In this document: one piece after another, positions 2,761 to 7,342 of the stretch
How positions within the stretch are numbered: position 1 is the stretch's first letter
How the letters are laid out: every line of letters starts with the position of its first letter
DNA from: a virus
Virus record (IMG/VR): IMGVR_UViG_2529292733_000001
DNA: 27,364 nucleotides
Reading direction: 5' to 3' (one strand)
Position numbers and translations under genes: made by a program
Notes under the pieces: model-generated
Database searches by the model: none
Told to the model about the DNA's origin: nothing
What the model saw: only the letters and a program-made list of their open reading frames with translations

Positions 2761-3001
2761 CGCGCTCGTGTGCAACCGCTGTGGCGAGGCCGTCCCTCGC
2801 GAAGAGTGGAAGCGCAACCTCAACGGCACGATCGAATTCAACTTCCTCGAGGCGGGGACGATGGGGGAGTACGAGCGCGGCCCGAAAACAGCGCATCTGT
2901 GTGGTGAGTGCGCGGGTGACTTCGCCGACGAATGTGACATCGAGATCCCGGATAAATGGACTCGTGGGCTCGAAGACGACCAGGAGGGTGACGGTGCCTA
3001 A
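2753..3001 (+). CDS. Zn-finger protein, CxxC...CxxC (82 aa)
   Basis: ATG at 2753 overlaps the upstream gene end. CNRC and CGEC motifs. Confidence 0.75.
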   Translation: MTDALVCNRCGEAVPREEWKRNLNGTIEFNFLEAGTMGEYERGPKTAHLCGECAGDFADECDIEIPDKWTRGLEDDQEGDGA

Positions 3002-3167
3002 CTGCAACAACTGCGAGTCGTTCGTCACCGAGGGCTACGTCCGCGTGTTCGCGCCGAGTCACCTTGATACGGTCCGCGTCTGCCCTCAGTATCCGGACAT
3101 GGTCCGCGAGGGCGGCGAGGTCCGTGAAGCCCGCTCACCGCGACACCAGGTCGGTGATGACTCGTGA
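2994..3167 (+). CDS. Small haloarchaeal CPxC-related Zn-finger protein (57 aa), fourth Cys replaced by Tyr
   Basis: GTG 2994 after GGAGGGTGA. MPNCNNCESFVTEGYVRVFAP...RVCPQYPDMVREGGEVREAR resembles a widespread haloarchaeal small-protein family (recalled as DUF7563-like). Confidence 0.75.
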   Translation: MPNCNNCESFVTEGYVRVFAPSHLDTVRVCPQYPDMVREGGEVREARSPRHQVGDDS

Positions 3168-3367: not shown

Positions 3368-3660
3368 GCACCGACTACCCCACTACCGATACCGAGTCCC
3401 TCGAGGGCGACCACGTCGCGATCTGCCCGATCTGCGGAACCAGCGCGACCGGTGACACCCACCAGGCGATGTACGAGGCTACCGCCAGGCACAACAAGGA
3501 GCGCCACGCCGGCGAGCGCATCGCCCGTCCGGTGAAGCCCTCGCGAAAGCACATCCGGGCGTTCCTGAATAGCATGACTCGGCAGTACGGCAGTGACGTC
3601 GCTCGCGAGCTCCGCCGAAAGATGGCTGACGTCGAACCGTGGGGTGCTCTCGATGGTTGA
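3364..3660 (+). CDS. CPxCG / C2H2-like Zn-finger protein (98 aa)
   Basis: ATGA overlap at 3364-3367. CPICG...HNKERH. Confidence 0.7.
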   Translation: MSTDYPTTDTESLEGDHVAICPICGTSATGDTHQAMYEATARHNKERHAGERIARPVKPSRKHIRAFLNSMTRQYGSDVARELRRKMADVEPWGALDG

Positions 3661-3664
3661 GTGC

Positions 3665-3672
3665 TATATGAA
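3665..3672 (+). promoter_or_regulatory. Putative TATA box (TATATGAA) for a leaderless wHTH transcript
   Basis: About 25-32 nt upstream of ATG 3697, the usual spacing for leaderless haloarchaeal mRNAs. Confidence 0.4.
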
Positions 3673-3696
3673 CTTCTACACCATGTGCATTCAGCG

Positions 3697-3921
3697 ATGA
3701 CCGACGCTCCATCAAAATATGAGCGTTTTAGTCCCGCTACGAAGCGGACTTATGATGCACTTAGTTCTGCAGATACACCATTATCACGGGCAACTCTCCA
3801 AAGACGGACTCATCATGCTGAAAGTACTGTTCTTGAATCTCTATCTGTTCTTCGAGAAGCAAACCTAGTTAGTCAGGTTTCAAGGTGGCCTGTCCCGAAG
3901 TACGAGATCGTCAGTCAGTAG
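3697..3921 (+). CDS. Small winged-helix (MarR/ArsR-like) transcriptional regulator (74 aa; alternative GTG start 3661)
   Basis: FSPATKRTYDALSSADTPLSRATLQRRTHHAESTVLESLSVLREANLV fits a wHTH. Low-GC codon usage. Confidence 0.65.
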   Translation: MTDAPSKYERFSPATKRTYDALSSADTPLSRATLQRRTHHAESTVLESLSVLREANLVSQVSRWPVPKYEIVSQ

Positions 3922-3969
3922 CACTCCATCACCTCTCGCTTATCTACCAGATTTCGATACTGGGAAGAG

Positions 3970-5601
3970 CTAGTTATTAGTAGCTGCTATAGTCTCCACA
4001 TCATACTCCTCTGCAAAATCCATGTTTGAGTACCACGTGTCGAAGTTGTCTTCAAGACTTCTAGAATCCTCATCTCTCAGTTCGTACATCATAGACAAGT
4101 TCGAGTCTAGTGAGTTGAACGAGGTGCCTACTGACAATCCACCTTCTGGCGACAGAACAAATCGATCATGGATAGGTGTTGAGTGGTTGCCGGGGACCCA
4201 TCTTATCGCCAGACTGATTTCTTTCTCCTTGGCTTTAGATACACACTCTTCAAAGCCGGCTCGAGTCGAATCCATATATTTCGGTTTATGTCCGATTAAG
4301 ATCCAGAACTCTGCATCAGGGCTGGCTTGCTCAACAAAGCTTGAGAGGTCGTCAGGTTGCAGGTATGGGTCCATAATCTTCACTGTAGAGGTGAATCGGC
4401 TATATAATTCATCTATTACCTCTTCATAGTCATCATCTGATTCAATAACCCACGTATTTGTGGCAATGGTTGGTCCAAAATTCGTTATTCTTTCTTGCCA
4501 AATTGGGGGCCCCACTTTGTGGTCAGATTCCTCAAATATTCTTGTAGGGACCGGTATTTCAGGTTCTGAATCCGTACCCTTCCCTCCTATATTCATGTTA
4601 AGGCCAACTCCTCTCACGAGTGGAACAGATGCTTTGTCCAGTGTGAGGCCCCCCTTCTTTACAAGGCAGAACTGTTCCGAGCCTCCTGGAGCAGAGTATT
4701 CGGGAACCGGATACCGAACAGTCTCTGTTCCATCATCTACTGCTATAACCGAATTCAAATTTCGACCTCTCGCTAATTCTGCAGCTTCACTATCCGAAAT
4801 GGCATTCCCAGAACTGACGTCAACAACACTCTCATAGAGAAGGTCGCCGTATTCCTCAGTCCGAATGACTATCTCTATATCCTCTTTTTTCACTTGTTGG
4901 AGATCCACTACCCAACTATCAGCTAGATCAAGCAGGGGTTCTTCCTGAGGGATAGAAGGATCGTCATGAAGCTGCTCAATAATCCCATCTTCGGACGACT
5001 CTTGAAGATAAACAGTCGCTCGGGGGTCTTCTATCACAATTAGTTGGTTCCCAATCCTTTCCGGATGAACATCAAGTCTAAGACCATACTGGTCAGAGAG
5101 AACTTTTATCAATTCAGAGAAATTTTCTGAGTCCCATTGGTTGCCACTCAGACCCTTGGGCCAGTGCTCAAAGCACAATGCAGGAAATTTGGACCCCCAT
5201 TCACTCATTTCTTCCGACGAACGTCTGGTAACACGTACATCCGTAGTGATTGTGTCACTACCTGATTCAATATGGGGAGGTTCTATCCTCAATTTTGTAG
5301 TCCTCCCTAATTCGTCCGGGATGTATTCTAAGAGGTCATCTCTTTCATAGCGAGTGACTACCACTCGCACACCATCGCCTGCATCAAGTTCTCGTTCTTC
5401 CAAGTCGCTCGTAGTCACATAAGAAAACACGTTGAGATGCTCACGTCCCATATCCTTCCATACGCTAAGCTCAGAGATCTCGCTCAACGTAGGATGGACC
5501 TCGTTGAGTAATCTTTCCGCATTGGATTTCATATTAGAACATACCGAGAGATATTCATAATCTTTTGGCCCCTCCTTACGCAATCCTATAAGGTGAGCCA
5601 C
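3970..5601 (-). CDS. 543-aa protein with C-terminal PLD-like (DPY...HDR...GxSxNS) nuclease domain; VPA1262-like architecture; candidate defence cargo
   Basis: Long acidic ORF in low-GC DNA. VKIMDPYL (DPY at 4363-4371), IHDRFVLS (HDRF at 4159-4170), VGTSFNSL. Central YGLRLDVHPERIGN. The start could be the GTG at 5601 or a later ATG. Confidence 0.7.
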   Translation of the reverse strand: MAHLIGLRKEGPKDYEYLSVCSNMKSNAERLLNEVHPTLSEISELSVWKDMGREHLNVFSYVTTSDLEERELDAGDGVRVVVTRYERDDLLEYIPDELGRTTKLRIEPPHIESGSDTITTDVRVTRRSSEEMSEWGSKFPALCFEHWPKGLSGNQWDSENFSELIKVLSDQYGLRLDVHPERIGNQLIVIEDPRATVYLQESSEDGIIEQLHDDPSIPQEEPLLDLADSWVVDLQQVKKEDIEIVIRTEEYGDLLYESVVDVSSGNAISDSEAAELARGRNLNSVIAVDDGTETVRYPVPEYSAPGGSEQFCLVKKGGLTLDKASVPLVRGVGLNMNIGGKGTDSEPEIPVPTRIFEESDHKVGPPIWQERITNFGPTIATNTWVIESDDDYEEVIDELYSRFTSTVKIMDPYLQPDDLSSFVEQASPDAEFWILIGHKPKYMDSTRAGFEECVSKAKEKEISLAIRWVPGNHSTPIHDRFVLSPEGGLSVGTSFNSLDSNLSMMYELRDEDSRSLEDNFDTWYSNMDFAEEYDVETIAATNN

Positions 5602-5715
5602 CTCCCGAACAGTGGTAGCTCCTTATCCTTTGATGTAGCTTCCAGCCTTATTAACGAGTAATTCCCGCCCAGCTGTCGGTCGGGGATGTCCGTTCGACAG
5701 CACTCGCTATTCTCT

Positions 5716-6474
5716 ATGAGCCGAACACAAGACTCCGAACAACTGAGCGGCGCGTATCGTTGGGAACCAGAGTTCGACCACGAAACCACGTTCGTCGACG
5801 AGAACTGGGACTACCAGCCCGACGACGAACGACTCACCGACGACGACACCCAGAACACCTACACCCCACCCGAACGCGAGTTCGACCAGGACATCCGCGA
5901 CGGCTCCCTCTTCAAACAGGAGGTCCAGCAGGACGCCGAGATCTGCTCGTCCTGCTTCCTCCCGAACTACGACGTCATCATTCCCCACTCCCCGCGCCCG
6001 TCGGTCGACAAGGGGCTCGTCCGGTACTACATCCCGATCGAGAGCACCACCCACTCCGAGAACGGTGCAGCACCGCTCTGCCGAGGCCCACCGAGAGCGT
6101 GCCAGTGTGGCCGTATCGGTCCGGCTCGGATCCGCCCACTGGACAAACCCCACGTCGCCGAGTTTGCCCGGAACCTCTCACGTACCCTCACCCGGAAGCA
6201 GCGCGATCGAGAGCGCCGCGCTAACGAGGCCGAGGAGTTCGGTGCTCGAGGCAAGGCCCGGAAGCTCCGCGCTGAGGCCACCCGCTTCGAGCACGACCCG
6301 CTGCTCCTCGCGTTCCGAGCGCTGCTCCTGAAATCGAAGCACCCGATGAGCGACGACTCGAACCTTGCCACCGCGCTCGACGACGCCCGATTCTCGACGG
6401 CCTACTCATGGAGTGACTTACTCCGCGTCGACGGCCAGCAGCGGCGCGCGCTCCCCGCGCCAGCAGGAGATTGA
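5716..6474 (+). CDS. Hypothetical viral protein with CxxC and CxC motifs (252 aa)
   Basis: ATG 5716 at the return to high GC. CSSC and CQCG motifs, acidic N-terminus, basic helical C-half. Confidence 0.75.
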   Translation: MSRTQDSEQLSGAYRWEPEFDHETTFVDENWDYQPDDERLTDDDTQNTYTPPEREFDQDIRDGSLFKQEVQQDAEICSSCFLPNYDVIIPHSPRPSVDKGLVRYYIPIESTTHSENGAAPLCRGPPRACQCGRIGPARIRPLDKPHVAEFARNLSRTLTRKQRDRERRANEAEEFGARGKARKLRAEATRFEHDPLLLAFRALLLKSKHPMSDDSNLATALDDARFSTAYSWSDLLRVDGQQRRALPAPAGD

Positions 6475-6517: not shown

Positions 6518-6838
6518 ATGGCGAGTAGTGACCCTTCAGACACCGACCCAGTCGAGGCCGTCCGCGAGACAGTCCCGTGGACCAAGCAACTCCGTAAAGT
6601 CGTCCTCCTTCTCCTCGGGAGTGCGGCCTTCGGGATCTTCCTCTACATGATGTACCTCAAAACTCAGGGGGCACGGATCCCCTACGAGGACATCTTCATC
6701 GTGCTCGGCGTCTCCGGCGCGCTGCTTGGGGTCAACTTCGGGCTCGACCTCTTCGCCGGTCTCACCTCCGAGTACGTCAACGTCAACATCGGCCCCAACA
6801 CCGATACCGACTCCGACGACCGCGACCGGGGGCGCTAA
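6518..6838 (+). CDS. 2-TM membrane protein, holin-like candidate (106 aa)
   Basis: Hydrophobic VVLLLLGSAAFGIFLYMMYL and IFIVLGVSGALLGVNFGL. Start assigned to ATG 6518. Confidence 0.7.
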   Translation: MASSDPSDTDPVEAVRETVPWTKQLRKVVLLLLGSAAFGIFLYMMYLKTQGARIPYEDIFIVLGVSGALLGVNFGLDLFAGLTSEYVNVNIGPNTDTDSDDRDRGR

Positions 6839-6839
6839 C

Positions 6840-7148
6840 GTGACCCTCTCCGTCGAGCCGGAGTTCCTCTTGCTCGTCGCGAGTGGGCTGTGGGTGCTGT
6901 GCGGTCTCGTCTCCGGCCTCCTCGCCCCGCCGCTCATCCGCCTCGAAGCCGCGTTGCTGTTCGTGCTTCTCGGTGTGATCGGTGGGGGTGCTGGCCTCGC
7001 GATTATCCTTCCGTCAGAGGACTCGGGCCTGTTGCTCGTCACCGCCATCTTCGGCTTCGGCCTCCTGCCGTTGCTCGCGACGACCTACCTCATGCTCGTC
7101 TTCCCGTCGCGCCTCCAGCGCCGACGGATCGCCAACCAACAGCAGTGA
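6840..7148 (+). CDS. 3-TM membrane protein with basic C-terminus, holin-like candidate (102 aa)
   Basis: GTG 1 nt after the upstream stop. Three hydrophobic segments, tail SRLQRRRIANQQQ. Confidence 0.7.
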   Translation: MTLSVEPEFLLLVASGLWVLCGLVSGLLAPPLIRLEAALLFVLLGVIGGGAGLAIILPSEDSGLLLVTAIFGFGLLPLLATTYLMLVFPSRLQRRRIANQQQ

Positions 7149-7159
7149 TCTAACCCACT

Positions 7160-7342
7160 ATGAAACAGAAACAGTTCGACCGACTCGTACAGCTCGTGAT
7201 CGCGCTCGTCGTGCTCGTCGGCCTCGGTTGGCTTGTCGCACGCGGCGACATCGCCGGTGAGTCCGCACTGACGTTCGTGGGGATCATCCTTGCCGCATTC
7301 GGCTTCGAGGCCGGGCGGCGGGTGCAGTATCGCCGCGAGTGA
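7160..7342 (+). CDS. 2-TM membrane protein with basic termini, holin-like candidate (60 aa)
   Basis: LVIALVVLVGLGWLVA and ALTFVGIILAAFGF; C-terminus GRRVQYRRE. Confidence 0.75.
   Translation: MKQKQFDRLVQLVIALVVLVGLGWLVARGDIAGESALTFVGIILAAFGFEAGRRVQYRRE

What the first reader, a model, noticed from the sequence alone, without database searches (positions are those of the whole stretch)
3970..5601. Antisense low-GC cargo gene with a PLD-like nuclease domain: candidate provirus-borne defence system in an archaeon
Seen: this is the only convincing minus-strand gene in the window. It lies in foreign-looking DNA between the early and late modules. Its C-terminal ~150 aa carry DPY, HDRF and GTSFNS motifs. 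Known: this motif set marks single-domain PLD-superfamily nucleases with a degenerate HKD, and prophage variable slots are hotspots for anti-phage genes. The overall layout (about 500 aa, ..L..HPERIGN.. centre, C-terminal PLD-like domain) recalls the uncharacterised VPA1262-like bacterial island proteins, which is a recollection and not a search result. Inference: a sensor (N-terminal ~390 aa) plus nuclease effector that protects the lysogen from other viruses or plasmids.
Basis: partly seen in the sequence, partly recalled or inferred. Interest (0 to 1): 0.76.

Follow-up and report, generated by a model that had tools for sequence, protein, structure and literature searches.

The report
Half-size Juno-like PLD gene in archaeal provirus
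A foreign-looking gene inside a dormant virus of a salt-loving archaeon encodes a protein whose tail folds like a phospholipase-D-type nuclease with an unusual His-Asp-Arg motif; it is a distant, half-length, stand-alone relative of the recently described bacterial anti-phage protein Juno, so it is probably a virus-carried defence gene, though nobody has tested it.

Summary
A 520-aa gene lies on the minus strand at 3970-5532; the true start is probably the ATG at 5532, not the GTG at 5601. It sits in a ~2.1-kb island of 46% GC within 63% GC DNA, antisense to every other gene of a ~41-kb head-tailed provirus integrated in tRNA-Gln.

Its C-terminal 160 residues fold as a single PLD domain (NucT Z 13.3, Nuc Z 13.0). 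H-D-R replaces the canonical H-x-K, and G-T-S-x-N is conserved. This part matches NCBIfam VPA1262_N_dom at E 2e-11, below the curated cut-off. VPA1262 is "Juno", which a 2026 preprint showed to be a single-gene anti-phage system in bacteria.

The archaeal protein lacks Juno's C-terminal half and has no helical partner gene. Its N-terminal 345 residues match no solved fold.

Homologs are rare (7 of 401 Halobacteria genomes) and always low-GC. Several lie beside AbiE, GmrSD, Lamassu LmuB, an MmeI-type enzyme or toxin-antitoxin pairs. The same domain also ends STAND ATPases of ~1600 aa.

A defence or exclusion nuclease is the best reading (about 0.55). Catalysis and protection are both untested. 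This scan has already found Juno-related HDR-PLD genes in at least ten other genomes. The archaeal, provirus-borne, stand-alone form is the new element here.

The parts
3970..5532 (-). Gene for the 520-aa HDR-type PLD-fold protein (stop codon at 3970-3972; likely start ATG at 5530-5532; an in-frame upstream GTG at 5601 would add 23 residues)
   Evidence: ORF list. Homologs start at the equivalent of M24. Coordinates checked by translation.
5023..5532 (-). N-terminal alpha/beta domain (aa 1-170), no recognisable fold. Carries family-invariant R100, E122 and W124 and near-invariant G161-N162 (the HPERIGN motif).
   Evidence: Models (pLDDT mostly 84-94). No PDB relative. Conservation.
4609..5022 (-). 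Middle beta-sandwich (aa 171-308), generic Ig-like arrangement
   Evidence: VIA-align best Z 5.6, within the noise range stated by the tool.
4462..4608 (-). Low-confidence linker (aa 309-357)
   Evidence: pLDDT below 50 for 308-324 and 336-357.
3982..4461 (-). C-terminal single PLD-fold domain (aa 358-517)
   Evidence: NucT Z 13.3, Nuc Z 13.0, SauUSI Z 12.7, Zucchini Z 12.5, NgoAVII Z 11.5, BfiI Z 10.6. Foldseek probability 1.00 to PLD-superfamily entries. NF040700 profile positions 330-476.
4162..4170 (-). H455-D456-R457, the variant of the HxK catalytic motif; invariant in the family
   Evidence: hhalign places H on the catalytic His and R on the catalytic Lys of a canonical PLDc_2 domain, but weakly (E 0.002, probability 14%).
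4114..4128 (-). G469-T-S-F-N473, the counterpart of the GSxN part of the HKD signature
4363..4383 (-). V-K-I-M-D-P-Y first strand of the PLD domain, with invariant K385 and P389
3661..3921 (+). Convergent 86-aa ORF inside the same low-GC island (46% GC). Winged-helix-like by eye, with no family hit. A possible accessory or regulator of the cassette.
   Evidence: Its homolog follows the H. thailandensis copy (52% over 59 aa) but is broken by stop codons there.
3650..5750 (.). Low-GC island (about 45% against 63%) that holds the two genes; no flanking repeats

Best explanation
The gene encodes a stand-alone, single-protein conflict or defence effector carried as cargo by a temperate head-tailed archaeal virus. 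It has three parts: an N-terminal region of about 310 aa with no known fold (an alpha/beta domain plus a beta-sandwich), a flexible linker, and a C-terminal single PLD-fold domain whose catalytic signature is H-D-R...G-T-S-x-N instead of H-x-K...G-S-x-N.

It is a remote, half-length relative of the N-terminal domain of the bacterial Juno (VPA1262) anti-phage proteins.

Proposed working (inferred). The gene is transcribed from its own promoter, antisense to the viral genes, so it can be made in the lysogen. The N-terminal region recognises a cue from an invading virus or plasmid, or keeps the enzyme in check. Two PLD domains then pair, as in Nuc and BfiI, to build one phosphodiesterase site that cuts nucleic acid. 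That blocks the invader or kills the infected cell, and so protects the lysogen population and the resident provirus.

Shown here: the gene, its foreign composition, the provirus, the PLD fold, the invariant motif, the sequence link to VPA1262_N_dom, and the neighbourhoods.

Inferred: catalysis, dimerisation, substrate, sensing and protection.
For: PLD fold of aa 355-517: Z 13.3 to NucT, 13.0 to Nuc and 12.7 to the SauUSI nuclease domain, and Foldseek probability 1.00.

H455, R457, G469, S471 and K385 are invariant, and T470 nearly so, across 15 diverse members. N473 is kept as N or D in every member tested. HDR[FYWC]...G[TS]S.[ND] is kept in distant hits, including the STAND fusions. That pattern is not expected of a pseudo-enzyme.

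NF040700 VPA1262_N_dom matches at E 2e-11, and all 15 members hit it, the best at exactly the 80-bit cut-off. Weak matches of the N-terminal region to profile positions ~101-250, collinear with the PLD match, appear in three archaeal copies (E 1e-4, 0.009, 0.03).

Neighbourhoods of homologs: AbiEi/AbiEii and GmrSD; LmuB at E 1.6e-28 plus SLFN_AlbA_2; an MmeI-type enzyme and AddAB-like nucleases; PemK/MazE, BrnT/CopG and TCAD9. The domain is fused to AAA_16/NACHT STAND ATPases that sit beside a SauUSI-like enzyme.

Distribution is patchy (7 of 401 Halobacteria genomes), and the gene is persistently low-GC in every haloarchaeal host.

The provirus is established by a tRNA-Gln attL, a 15-nt repeat beside a tyrosine integrase, and host SufBD genes outside.
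Against: No experiment exists on any archaeal member or on any ~500-aa member.

The NCBIfam scores are below the curated cut-offs, and the window's protein does not hit the full Juno model.

PADLOC has no hit, although its 2023 release predates Juno.

Lys-to-Arg in the HKD motif has no characterised catalytic precedent that I know of (own knowledge). The conserved Asn is displaced by one position in the hhalign register.

Foldseek's top-ranked matches are non-catalytic PLD-like domains: TrmBL2, MITD1 and FAM83.

The closest homolog sits alone among housekeeping genes. The Halorarius plasmid copy has only replication genes nearby.

The neighbourhood evidence is qualitative, with no background rate computed.

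No sequenced virus isolate and no IMG/VR contig carries the family, so provirus carriage is a single instance, plus one virus-like contig.
Confidence: 0.55

Rival explanations
1. The PLD-like domain is not an enzyme but a binding module for a ligand, DNA or membrane, as in TrmB/TrmBL2, MITD1 and FAM83. The protein would then be a regulator or adaptor of unknown role. It could still belong to a conflict system, but it would not act as a nuclease.
For: The best Foldseek E-values go to TrmBL2 (3.2e-5), MITD1 (3.5e-5) and FAM83. One member touches Pfam MIT_C at E 0.15. The catalytic Lys is replaced by Arg. No sequence-level match to any solved PLD enzyme was found.
Against: His, Arg and Ser are invariant, and Thr and Asn/Asp nearly so, at the positions of the HKD signature across archaeal and bacterial members and the STAND fusions. 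The known pseudo-PLD domains have lost these residues (own knowledge). VIA-align ranks the true nucleases NucT and Nuc first. One member hits PLDc_2 at E 2e-4.
Confidence: 0.2
2. The gene serves the mobile element and not the host. It could be a virus-encoded nuclease used in the lytic cycle (host DNA breakdown or nucleotide scavenging), an anti-defence factor, or a selfish addiction toxin that stabilises the cassette.
For: It is carried by a provirus, by megaplasmids and on a virus-like contig with HNH and a thymidylate-synthase-like gene. A small convergent ORF travels with it in two Halococcus genomes.
Against: It is antisense to the viral operons and compositionally foreign to the viral backbone. 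It is absent from 50,697 virus isolates and from IMG/VR. A distantly related element with the same flanking gene lacks it. In H. thailandensis it stands alone in the chromosome with the small ORF broken by stops, so there is no obligatory antitoxin.
Confidence: 0.15
3. It is a true phospholipase or lipid transferase acting on archaeal membrane lipids, for example helping lysis or remodelling the envelope.
For: The PLD fold is shared with phospholipases D, cardiolipin and phosphatidylserine synthases, and poxvirus F13. Putative lysis-type small membrane proteins lie nearby at 6518-7342 (first-reader note e1-5855913, unchecked).
Against: It has a single HKD-type domain like the nuclease branch (Nuc, NucT, BfiI, Zucchini), whereas lipid enzymes have two domains in one chain (own knowledge). 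There is no membrane segment, and the protein is strongly acidic and looks soluble (103 D+E against 46 K+R). Its relatives are associated with restriction, toxin-antitoxin and STAND genes.
Confidence: 0.05

Closest known systems
Juno (VPA1262 family; NCBIfam NF040699 full length and NF040700 N-terminal domain), a single-gene bacterial anti-phage system (bioRxiv 10.64898/2026.08.01.741415)
   Same: Both share the HDR-type PLD-like domain (E 2e-11 to NF040700, profile positions 330-476). The N-terminal region is weakly collinear with profile positions ~101-250 in three archaeal copies. Both are single genes, and both are carried on mobile elements rich in defence genes.
   Different: The archaeal protein is about 520 aa against about 1026 model positions, so the whole C-terminal half of Juno is missing. 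Scores are below both curated cut-offs. The host is archaeal, whereas the preprint reports Gram-negative bacteria. The carrier is a provirus. No protection data exist. The preprint gives no domain analysis or mechanism for Juno.
Split Juno-like operons noted earlier in this scan (an HDR-PLD N-half protein plus a 630-700-aa helical partner)
   Same: The PLD-bearing protein is the same kind of module, with the same Lys-to-Arg motif (AI notes).
   Different: No recurring large partner gene lies beside any of the eight copies checked. The ~675-aa neighbours are GmrSD and LmuB, which belong to other systems.
Single-HKD PLD-family nucleases: Nuc (1bys), NucT (6ehi), BfiI (2c1l), NgoAVII R protein (4rct), the SauUSI nuclease domain (7clg), Zucchini (4ggj)
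   Same: The fold is shared over about 145 aligned residues, with Z 10.6-13.3. There is one HKD-type motif per chain, which in these enzymes requires a dimer. Several are restriction or defence enzymes.
   Different: The motif is H-x-R instead of H-x-K, and the Asn is shifted by one position in the hhalign register. Sequence identity is 7-14%. No sequence-level match was found. The attached N-terminal region is unrelated.
Pseudo-PLD domains: TrmB/TrmBL2 C-terminal domain, MITD1 MIT_C, FAM83 DUF1669
   Same: These give the best Foldseek E-values, with Z 10.3-13.1.
   Different: Those domains lack a conserved catalytic His/Lys set (own knowledge). This family keeps His, Arg and Ser invariant and Thr and Asn/Asp nearly so.
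Defence systems predicted in archaeal head-tailed proviruses (HMA, type II RM, DISARM parts, pAgo; PMC11705971)
   Same: The concept is the same: defence cargo on a head-tailed archaeal provirus.
   Different: The protein family is different. This one is not detected by PADLOC v2.

Membership tests
Juno / VPA1262 family (NCBIfam NF040699, subfamily model, 1026 positions, cut-off 325 bits) | Full-length match above the curated cut-off | tested here: not met
   The window's protein has no hit, and neither does its whole genome. Only 2 of 15 relatives touch the model, at 26-28 bits over the PLD-like part.
Juno / VPA1262 family | C-terminal half of about 550 residues after the PLD-like domain | tested here: not met
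   The protein ends about 45 residues after the GTSFN motif. The PLD-like part maps to positions ~406-534 of 1026 in the full model.
Juno / VPA1262 family | Protection against viruses when expressed | not testable with these tools
   Shown only for the P. agglomerans and V. parahaemolyticus proteins in E. coli.
VPA1262 N-terminal domain-containing proteins (NCBIfam NF040700, 478 positions, cut-off 80 bits) | Match above the curated cut-off | tested here: not met
   43.3-43.6 bits, E 2e-11, covering only profile positions 330-476. All 15 relatives hit the model, and one (P0025) reaches exactly 80 bits.
VPA1262 N-terminal domain-containing proteins | Homology over the whole 478-position domain, not only the PLD-like part | tested here: inconclusive
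   Weak collinear matches to profile positions ~101-250 appear in three archaeal copies (E 1e-4, 0.009, 0.03) but not in the window's own copy. The Atlas feature search with residues 1-345 alone gives 'putative VPA1262 family protein' first at 0.83, which is only a lead. No named Juno sequence could be fetched for a profile-profile test.
PLD superfamily (HKD phosphodiesterases) | PLD fold | tested here: met
   Z 13.3, 13.0, 12.7 and 12.5 to NucT, Nuc, SauUSI and Zucchini over 139-153 aligned residues. Foldseek probability 1.00. The model's pLDDT in this domain is about 80-91.
PLD superfamily (HKD phosphodiesterases) | HxK(x)4D(x)6GSxN signature | tested here: not met
   The His is present and invariant. 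Lys is replaced by an invariant Arg. There is no conserved Asp at +7. GTSxN is present, with the Asn one position later. This is a variant motif, not the canonical one.
PLD superfamily (HKD phosphodiesterases) | Sequence match to Pfam PLDc or PLDc_2 above the gathering score | tested here: not met
   The window's protein has none. One of 15 relatives hits PLDc_2 at E 2e-4, and P0030 hits at E 0.0046, both below the 27-bit cut-off.
PLD superfamily (HKD phosphodiesterases) | Homodimer forming one composite active site; phosphodiesterase activity | not testable with these tools
No biochemistry is available.
Known anti-phage systems in PADLOC-DB v2.0.0 | Hit to any defence-protein model | tested here: not met
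   0 families at E up to 10. The library dates from 2023 and predates Juno.

The most novel reading that the evidence does not exclude
The archaeal ~500-aa proteins are an autonomous 'mini-Juno': the HDR-type PLD module plus its N-terminal region would be the minimal functional core of a defence family that spans Bacteria and Archaea. The Arg-for-Lys PLD site would be a working nuclease centre. Juno, whose mechanism is unknown, would then get its first mechanistic handle, and a temperate archaeal virus would be shown to arm its host with it.
Probability: 0.3. Interest if true: 0.65.

Novelty: new variant of a known kind. Interest (0 to 1): 0.52.

Why it matters
Juno was validated only in 2026, and no mechanism has been published. 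A half-length, partner-less archaeal relative that keeps only the HDR-type PLD module and its N-terminal region points to that module as the functional core. It also offers a small, soluble protein for biochemistry and structure work.

If it protects haloarchaea, it would add a defence family shared between the two prokaryotic domains. It would also be a concrete case of a temperate archaeal head-tailed virus carrying host-protective cargo, something so far mostly predicted with PADLOC-type tools that cannot see this family.

If the Arg-for-Lys site is catalytic, it would widen the accepted PLD signature.

Tried and rejected
Sequence searches against solved structures found no PLD enzyme, either with the protein or with the family profile. 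The nanobody, poxvirus and Argonaute rows are chance hits with E above 0.1.

Pfam hits to DUF5767 and PMI_typeI_cat are below threshold, and I treated them as noise. PHROGs gave nothing.

Fold searches for the N-terminal 345 residues alone gave a best Z of 5.6 for generic Ig-like sandwiches by VIA-align and no Foldseek match at E 0.001 or below. I do not claim a new fold. The BFVD viral library added only poxvirus F13-type PLD matches. The structure-atlas library was not available.

I tried to fetch named full-length Juno proteins for a profile-profile comparison. The two remaining homology searches, among longer proteins, found only more STAND fusions or nothing. The family models rang in none of the control genomes above cut-off.

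Expression: no RNA holder was listed among the public runs, and I laid no reads.

The IMG/VR pattern scan and the tblastn of virus isolates found no relative.

The variable-slot test was uninformative. Elements sharing the right-flank gene (G191 at 36%, G145 at 44% identity) are too divergent for synteny. G191's has no PLD gene and no low-GC patch nearby.

No direct or inverted repeats bound the cassette.

I considered the 86-aa convergent ORF as an antitoxin or immunity gene and rejected it as obligatory, because its H. thailandensis counterpart is broken by stops while the PLD gene there is intact.

I looked for a large helical partner, as in the split Juno-like operons noted earlier in the scan, beside eight copies. 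None recurs.

Full report
**1. The observation**

The minus-strand ORF 3970..5601 (543 aa) is present. Its three closest homologs are from Halococcus thailandensis (62% identity) and two metagenomes (49%). They all begin at the residue equivalent to M24. The gene therefore most likely starts at the ATG at 5532 and encodes 520 aa. Residue numbers below use this 520-aa form.

The gene is 45.6% GC against 63.4% for the rest of the window. The low-GC island runs from about 3650 to 5750. Plus-strand genes tile the rest of the window.

**2. The setting is an integrated provirus**

The window carries a terminase large subunit, a portal, a Mu-F-like protein, a prohead protease and an HK97-type capsid protein. 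To the left of the window lie host genes for an ABC transporter, SufB/D and an iron-dependent repressor. A tRNA-Gln(ttg) follows at contig positions 116,853-116,925.

The last 14 nt of the tRNA plus one further base, 15 nt in all (TCTGCCCGGGACTAT), recur at contig ~158,187. That is 48 nt beyond a tyrosine integrase gene. The provirus is thus about 41.3 kb, and the gene lies 4.4-5.9 kb from attL. The window's genome is a Halococcus: the genome search places H. thailandensis in the same genus.

**3. What the protein is**

Pfam, PHROGs and PADLOC give nothing significant. NCBIfam gives one hit, to NF040700 'VPA1262 family N-terminal domain'. It scores E 2e-11 at 43 bits, against a cut-off of 80, and covers residues 373-501, which map to profile positions 330-476 of 478.

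A search of 1.84 billion representatives finds only 36 relatives. All 15 aligned members hit NF040700, and the best sits at exactly 80 bits. The full-length Juno model NF040699 has 1026 positions and places this domain at about 406-534. The window's protein does not reach that model.

An AlphaFold2 model built from the 15-sequence alignment has mean pLDDT 79.5.
- Residues 355-517 adopt a PLD fold. The matches are NucT (Z 13.3, rmsd 3.0, 144 aligned), Nuc (Z 13.0), the SauUSI nuclease domain (12.7), Zucchini (12.5), NgoAVII (11.5) and BfiI (10.6).
- Foldseek also ranks the non-catalytic PLD-like domains of TrmBL2, MITD1 and FAM83 at the top.
- The N-terminal 345 residues, folded alone (pLDDT 77.9, pTM 0.76), have no convincing solved relative. 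The best match is Z 5.6 for a generic beta-sandwich at 172-307, and Foldseek finds none.

**4. The active-site question**

Across the family, K385, P389, H455, D456, R457, G469 and S471 are invariant, and P453, T470 and L475 nearly so. The pattern HDR[FYWC]-x(8-20)-G[ST][STA]-x-[ND] is kept in the most distant hits, including proteins of ~1600 aa.

I ran hhalign against the canonical PLDc_2/NgoFVII domain of a SauUSI-like enzyme found in locus L027. The score is weak (E 0.002, probability 14%). It places H455 on the catalytic His, R457 on the catalytic Lys and G-T-S on G-S-S, with the Asn one position later.

The domain therefore carries a Lys-to-Arg variant of the HKD signature. Invariance of these residues argues for a working phosphate-binding or catalytic site. 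Catalysis itself is not shown. I know of no characterised H-x-R precedent (own knowledge).

**5. Relation to Juno**

A preprint of August 2026 (bioRxiv 10.64898/2026.08.01.741415) renamed the VPA1262 family Juno. [quoted passage not shown] It offers no domain analysis or mechanism.

The archaeal protein shares the HDR-type PLD-like domain. Three archaeal copies, though not the window's own, also give weak matches of their N-terminal region to profile positions ~101-250 of NF040700, collinear with the PLD match (E 1e-4, 0.009, 0.03). A language-model feature search with residues 1-345 alone puts a 'putative VPA1262 family protein' cluster first at 0.83, which is only a lead.

The archaeal protein lacks the whole C-terminal half of Juno. 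Earlier notes of this scan describe Juno-related HDR-PLD genes in at least ten other genomes. Several are split operons with a helical partner of 630-700 aa. I looked for such a partner beside eight copies and found none that recurs. The archaeal clade is therefore a stand-alone N-half.

**6. Distribution and neighbourhoods**

The family is found in 7 of 401 Halobacteria genomes sampled, in 5 of 91 genera. It occurs on the Halobacterium salinarum megaplasmids and on a Halorarius plasmid. No match was found among 50,697 virus isolates or in IMG/VR.

In haloarchaea the gene is always low-GC: 43-50% against flanks of 54-66% wherever the flanks are not themselves low-GC. The two short loci whose flanks are also 48-49% GC are uninformative.

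The neighbourhoods differ from copy to copy:
- Halobacterium-type plasmids: AbiEi/AbiEii - TRAM - Cdc6 - gene - SRAP - GmrSD.
- G394: a Lamassu-type LmuB (E 1.6e-28), a SLFN_AlbA_2 protein and an AAA+DUF6414 pair.
- A JGI contig: ParB, AddAB-like helicase-nucleases and an MmeI-type enzyme.
- A contig of unknown host (L026): PemK/MazE, BrnT/CopG and TCAD9.
- The STAND fusion: a SauUSI-like enzyme and an HNH nuclease.

Against this, the H. thailandensis copy is a lone 42.7%-GC insertion between Trm5 and a membrane-protein gene. The Halorarius copy sits among replication genes. The association with defence genes is therefore suggestive but not quantified.

**7. The cassette**

DNA similarity between the two Halococcus copies continues for about 330 nt past the stop codon. 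That stretch covers the convergent 86-aa ORF at 3661-3921, which is 52% identical over 59 aa. In H. thailandensis that ORF is interrupted by stops. The unit that moved is thus a ~2.1-kb two-gene cassette, but the small gene is not needed for carrying the large one. No repeats bound the cassette.

**8. Verdict**

The best reading is a provirus-borne, stand-alone, Juno-related defence or exclusion protein whose effector is a variant PLD-type phosphodiesterase (confidence 0.55).

The rivals are:
- a non-catalytic PLD-like binding domain (0.20);
- a function for the mobile element itself (0.15);
- a lipid enzyme (0.05).

It is not a member of Juno by NCBIfam's criteria. I file it as a new variant of a known kind. 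Interest is moderate. The family link and the PLD reading have already been reached for bacterial relatives in this scan. What is new here is the archaeal host, the provirus carrier and the minimal architecture.

Noticed in passing
outside the window: G000 contig C30 about 116,853-158,201 (L019:16854-16927; L020:12896-14202): The provirus borders. attL is the 3' end of tRNA-Gln(ttg). A 15-nt exact repeat (TCTGCCCGGGACTAT) lies 48 nt beyond a tyrosine integrase that has a C-terminal zinc ribbon. The element is about 41.3 kb, and the window covers its left two thirds.
   Followed up: partly
L020:5000-11000 (contig C30 about 149-155 kb): A second low-GC stretch (48-59%) lies in the right arm of the same provirus. 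It holds minus-strand ORFs of 174-438 aa. One is a DUF7342 protein (E 4e-41), and the others have no Pfam family. It may be a second cargo region.
   Followed up: partly
window 3661-3921 (+): An 86-aa ORF, winged-helix-like by eye and 46% GC, lies convergent with the PLD gene. A homologous stretch follows the H. thailandensis copy but is broken by stop codons there.
   Followed up: yes
window 2781-3167 (+) and L005:5858-6016: The C-terminal 53 aa of this small ORF are 64% identical to a DUF7563 zinc-ribbon gene on the JGI contig that carries homolog P0004. The two elements therefore share at least one other gene.
   Followed up: no
NC_001869.1 / NC_002608.1 at 71,179-72,153 (pNRC100 and pNRC200): The Halobacterium NRC-1 megaplasmid copies cover only residues ~228-525 of the query, whereas the pHS1 and pHS2 copies are full length. 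The NRC-1 copy may be truncated.
   Followed up: no
G287:C119:49668-50048 (L016); G134:C17:6496-6831 (L014); G278:C1:3132563-3132841 (L015): Shorter open frames (321-357 aa) carry only the HDR-type PLD-like domain. One is a second copy in H. thailandensis. Their N-terminal parts differ from this family.
   Followed up: no
L034:7500-9000 (G145:C2 about 1,059,500-1,061,000): A sharp 39-41% GC patch lies next to the homolog of the window's 5686-6474 gene in a distantly related element. It may be another cargo slot with different content.
   Followed up: no
window 5764-5891: Three copies of a ~20-nt direct repeat (GAACCAGAGTTCGACCACGA and variants), plus a 12-nt inverted repeat, lie inside the start of the 5686-6474 gene, just beyond the cassette border.
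   Followed up: no
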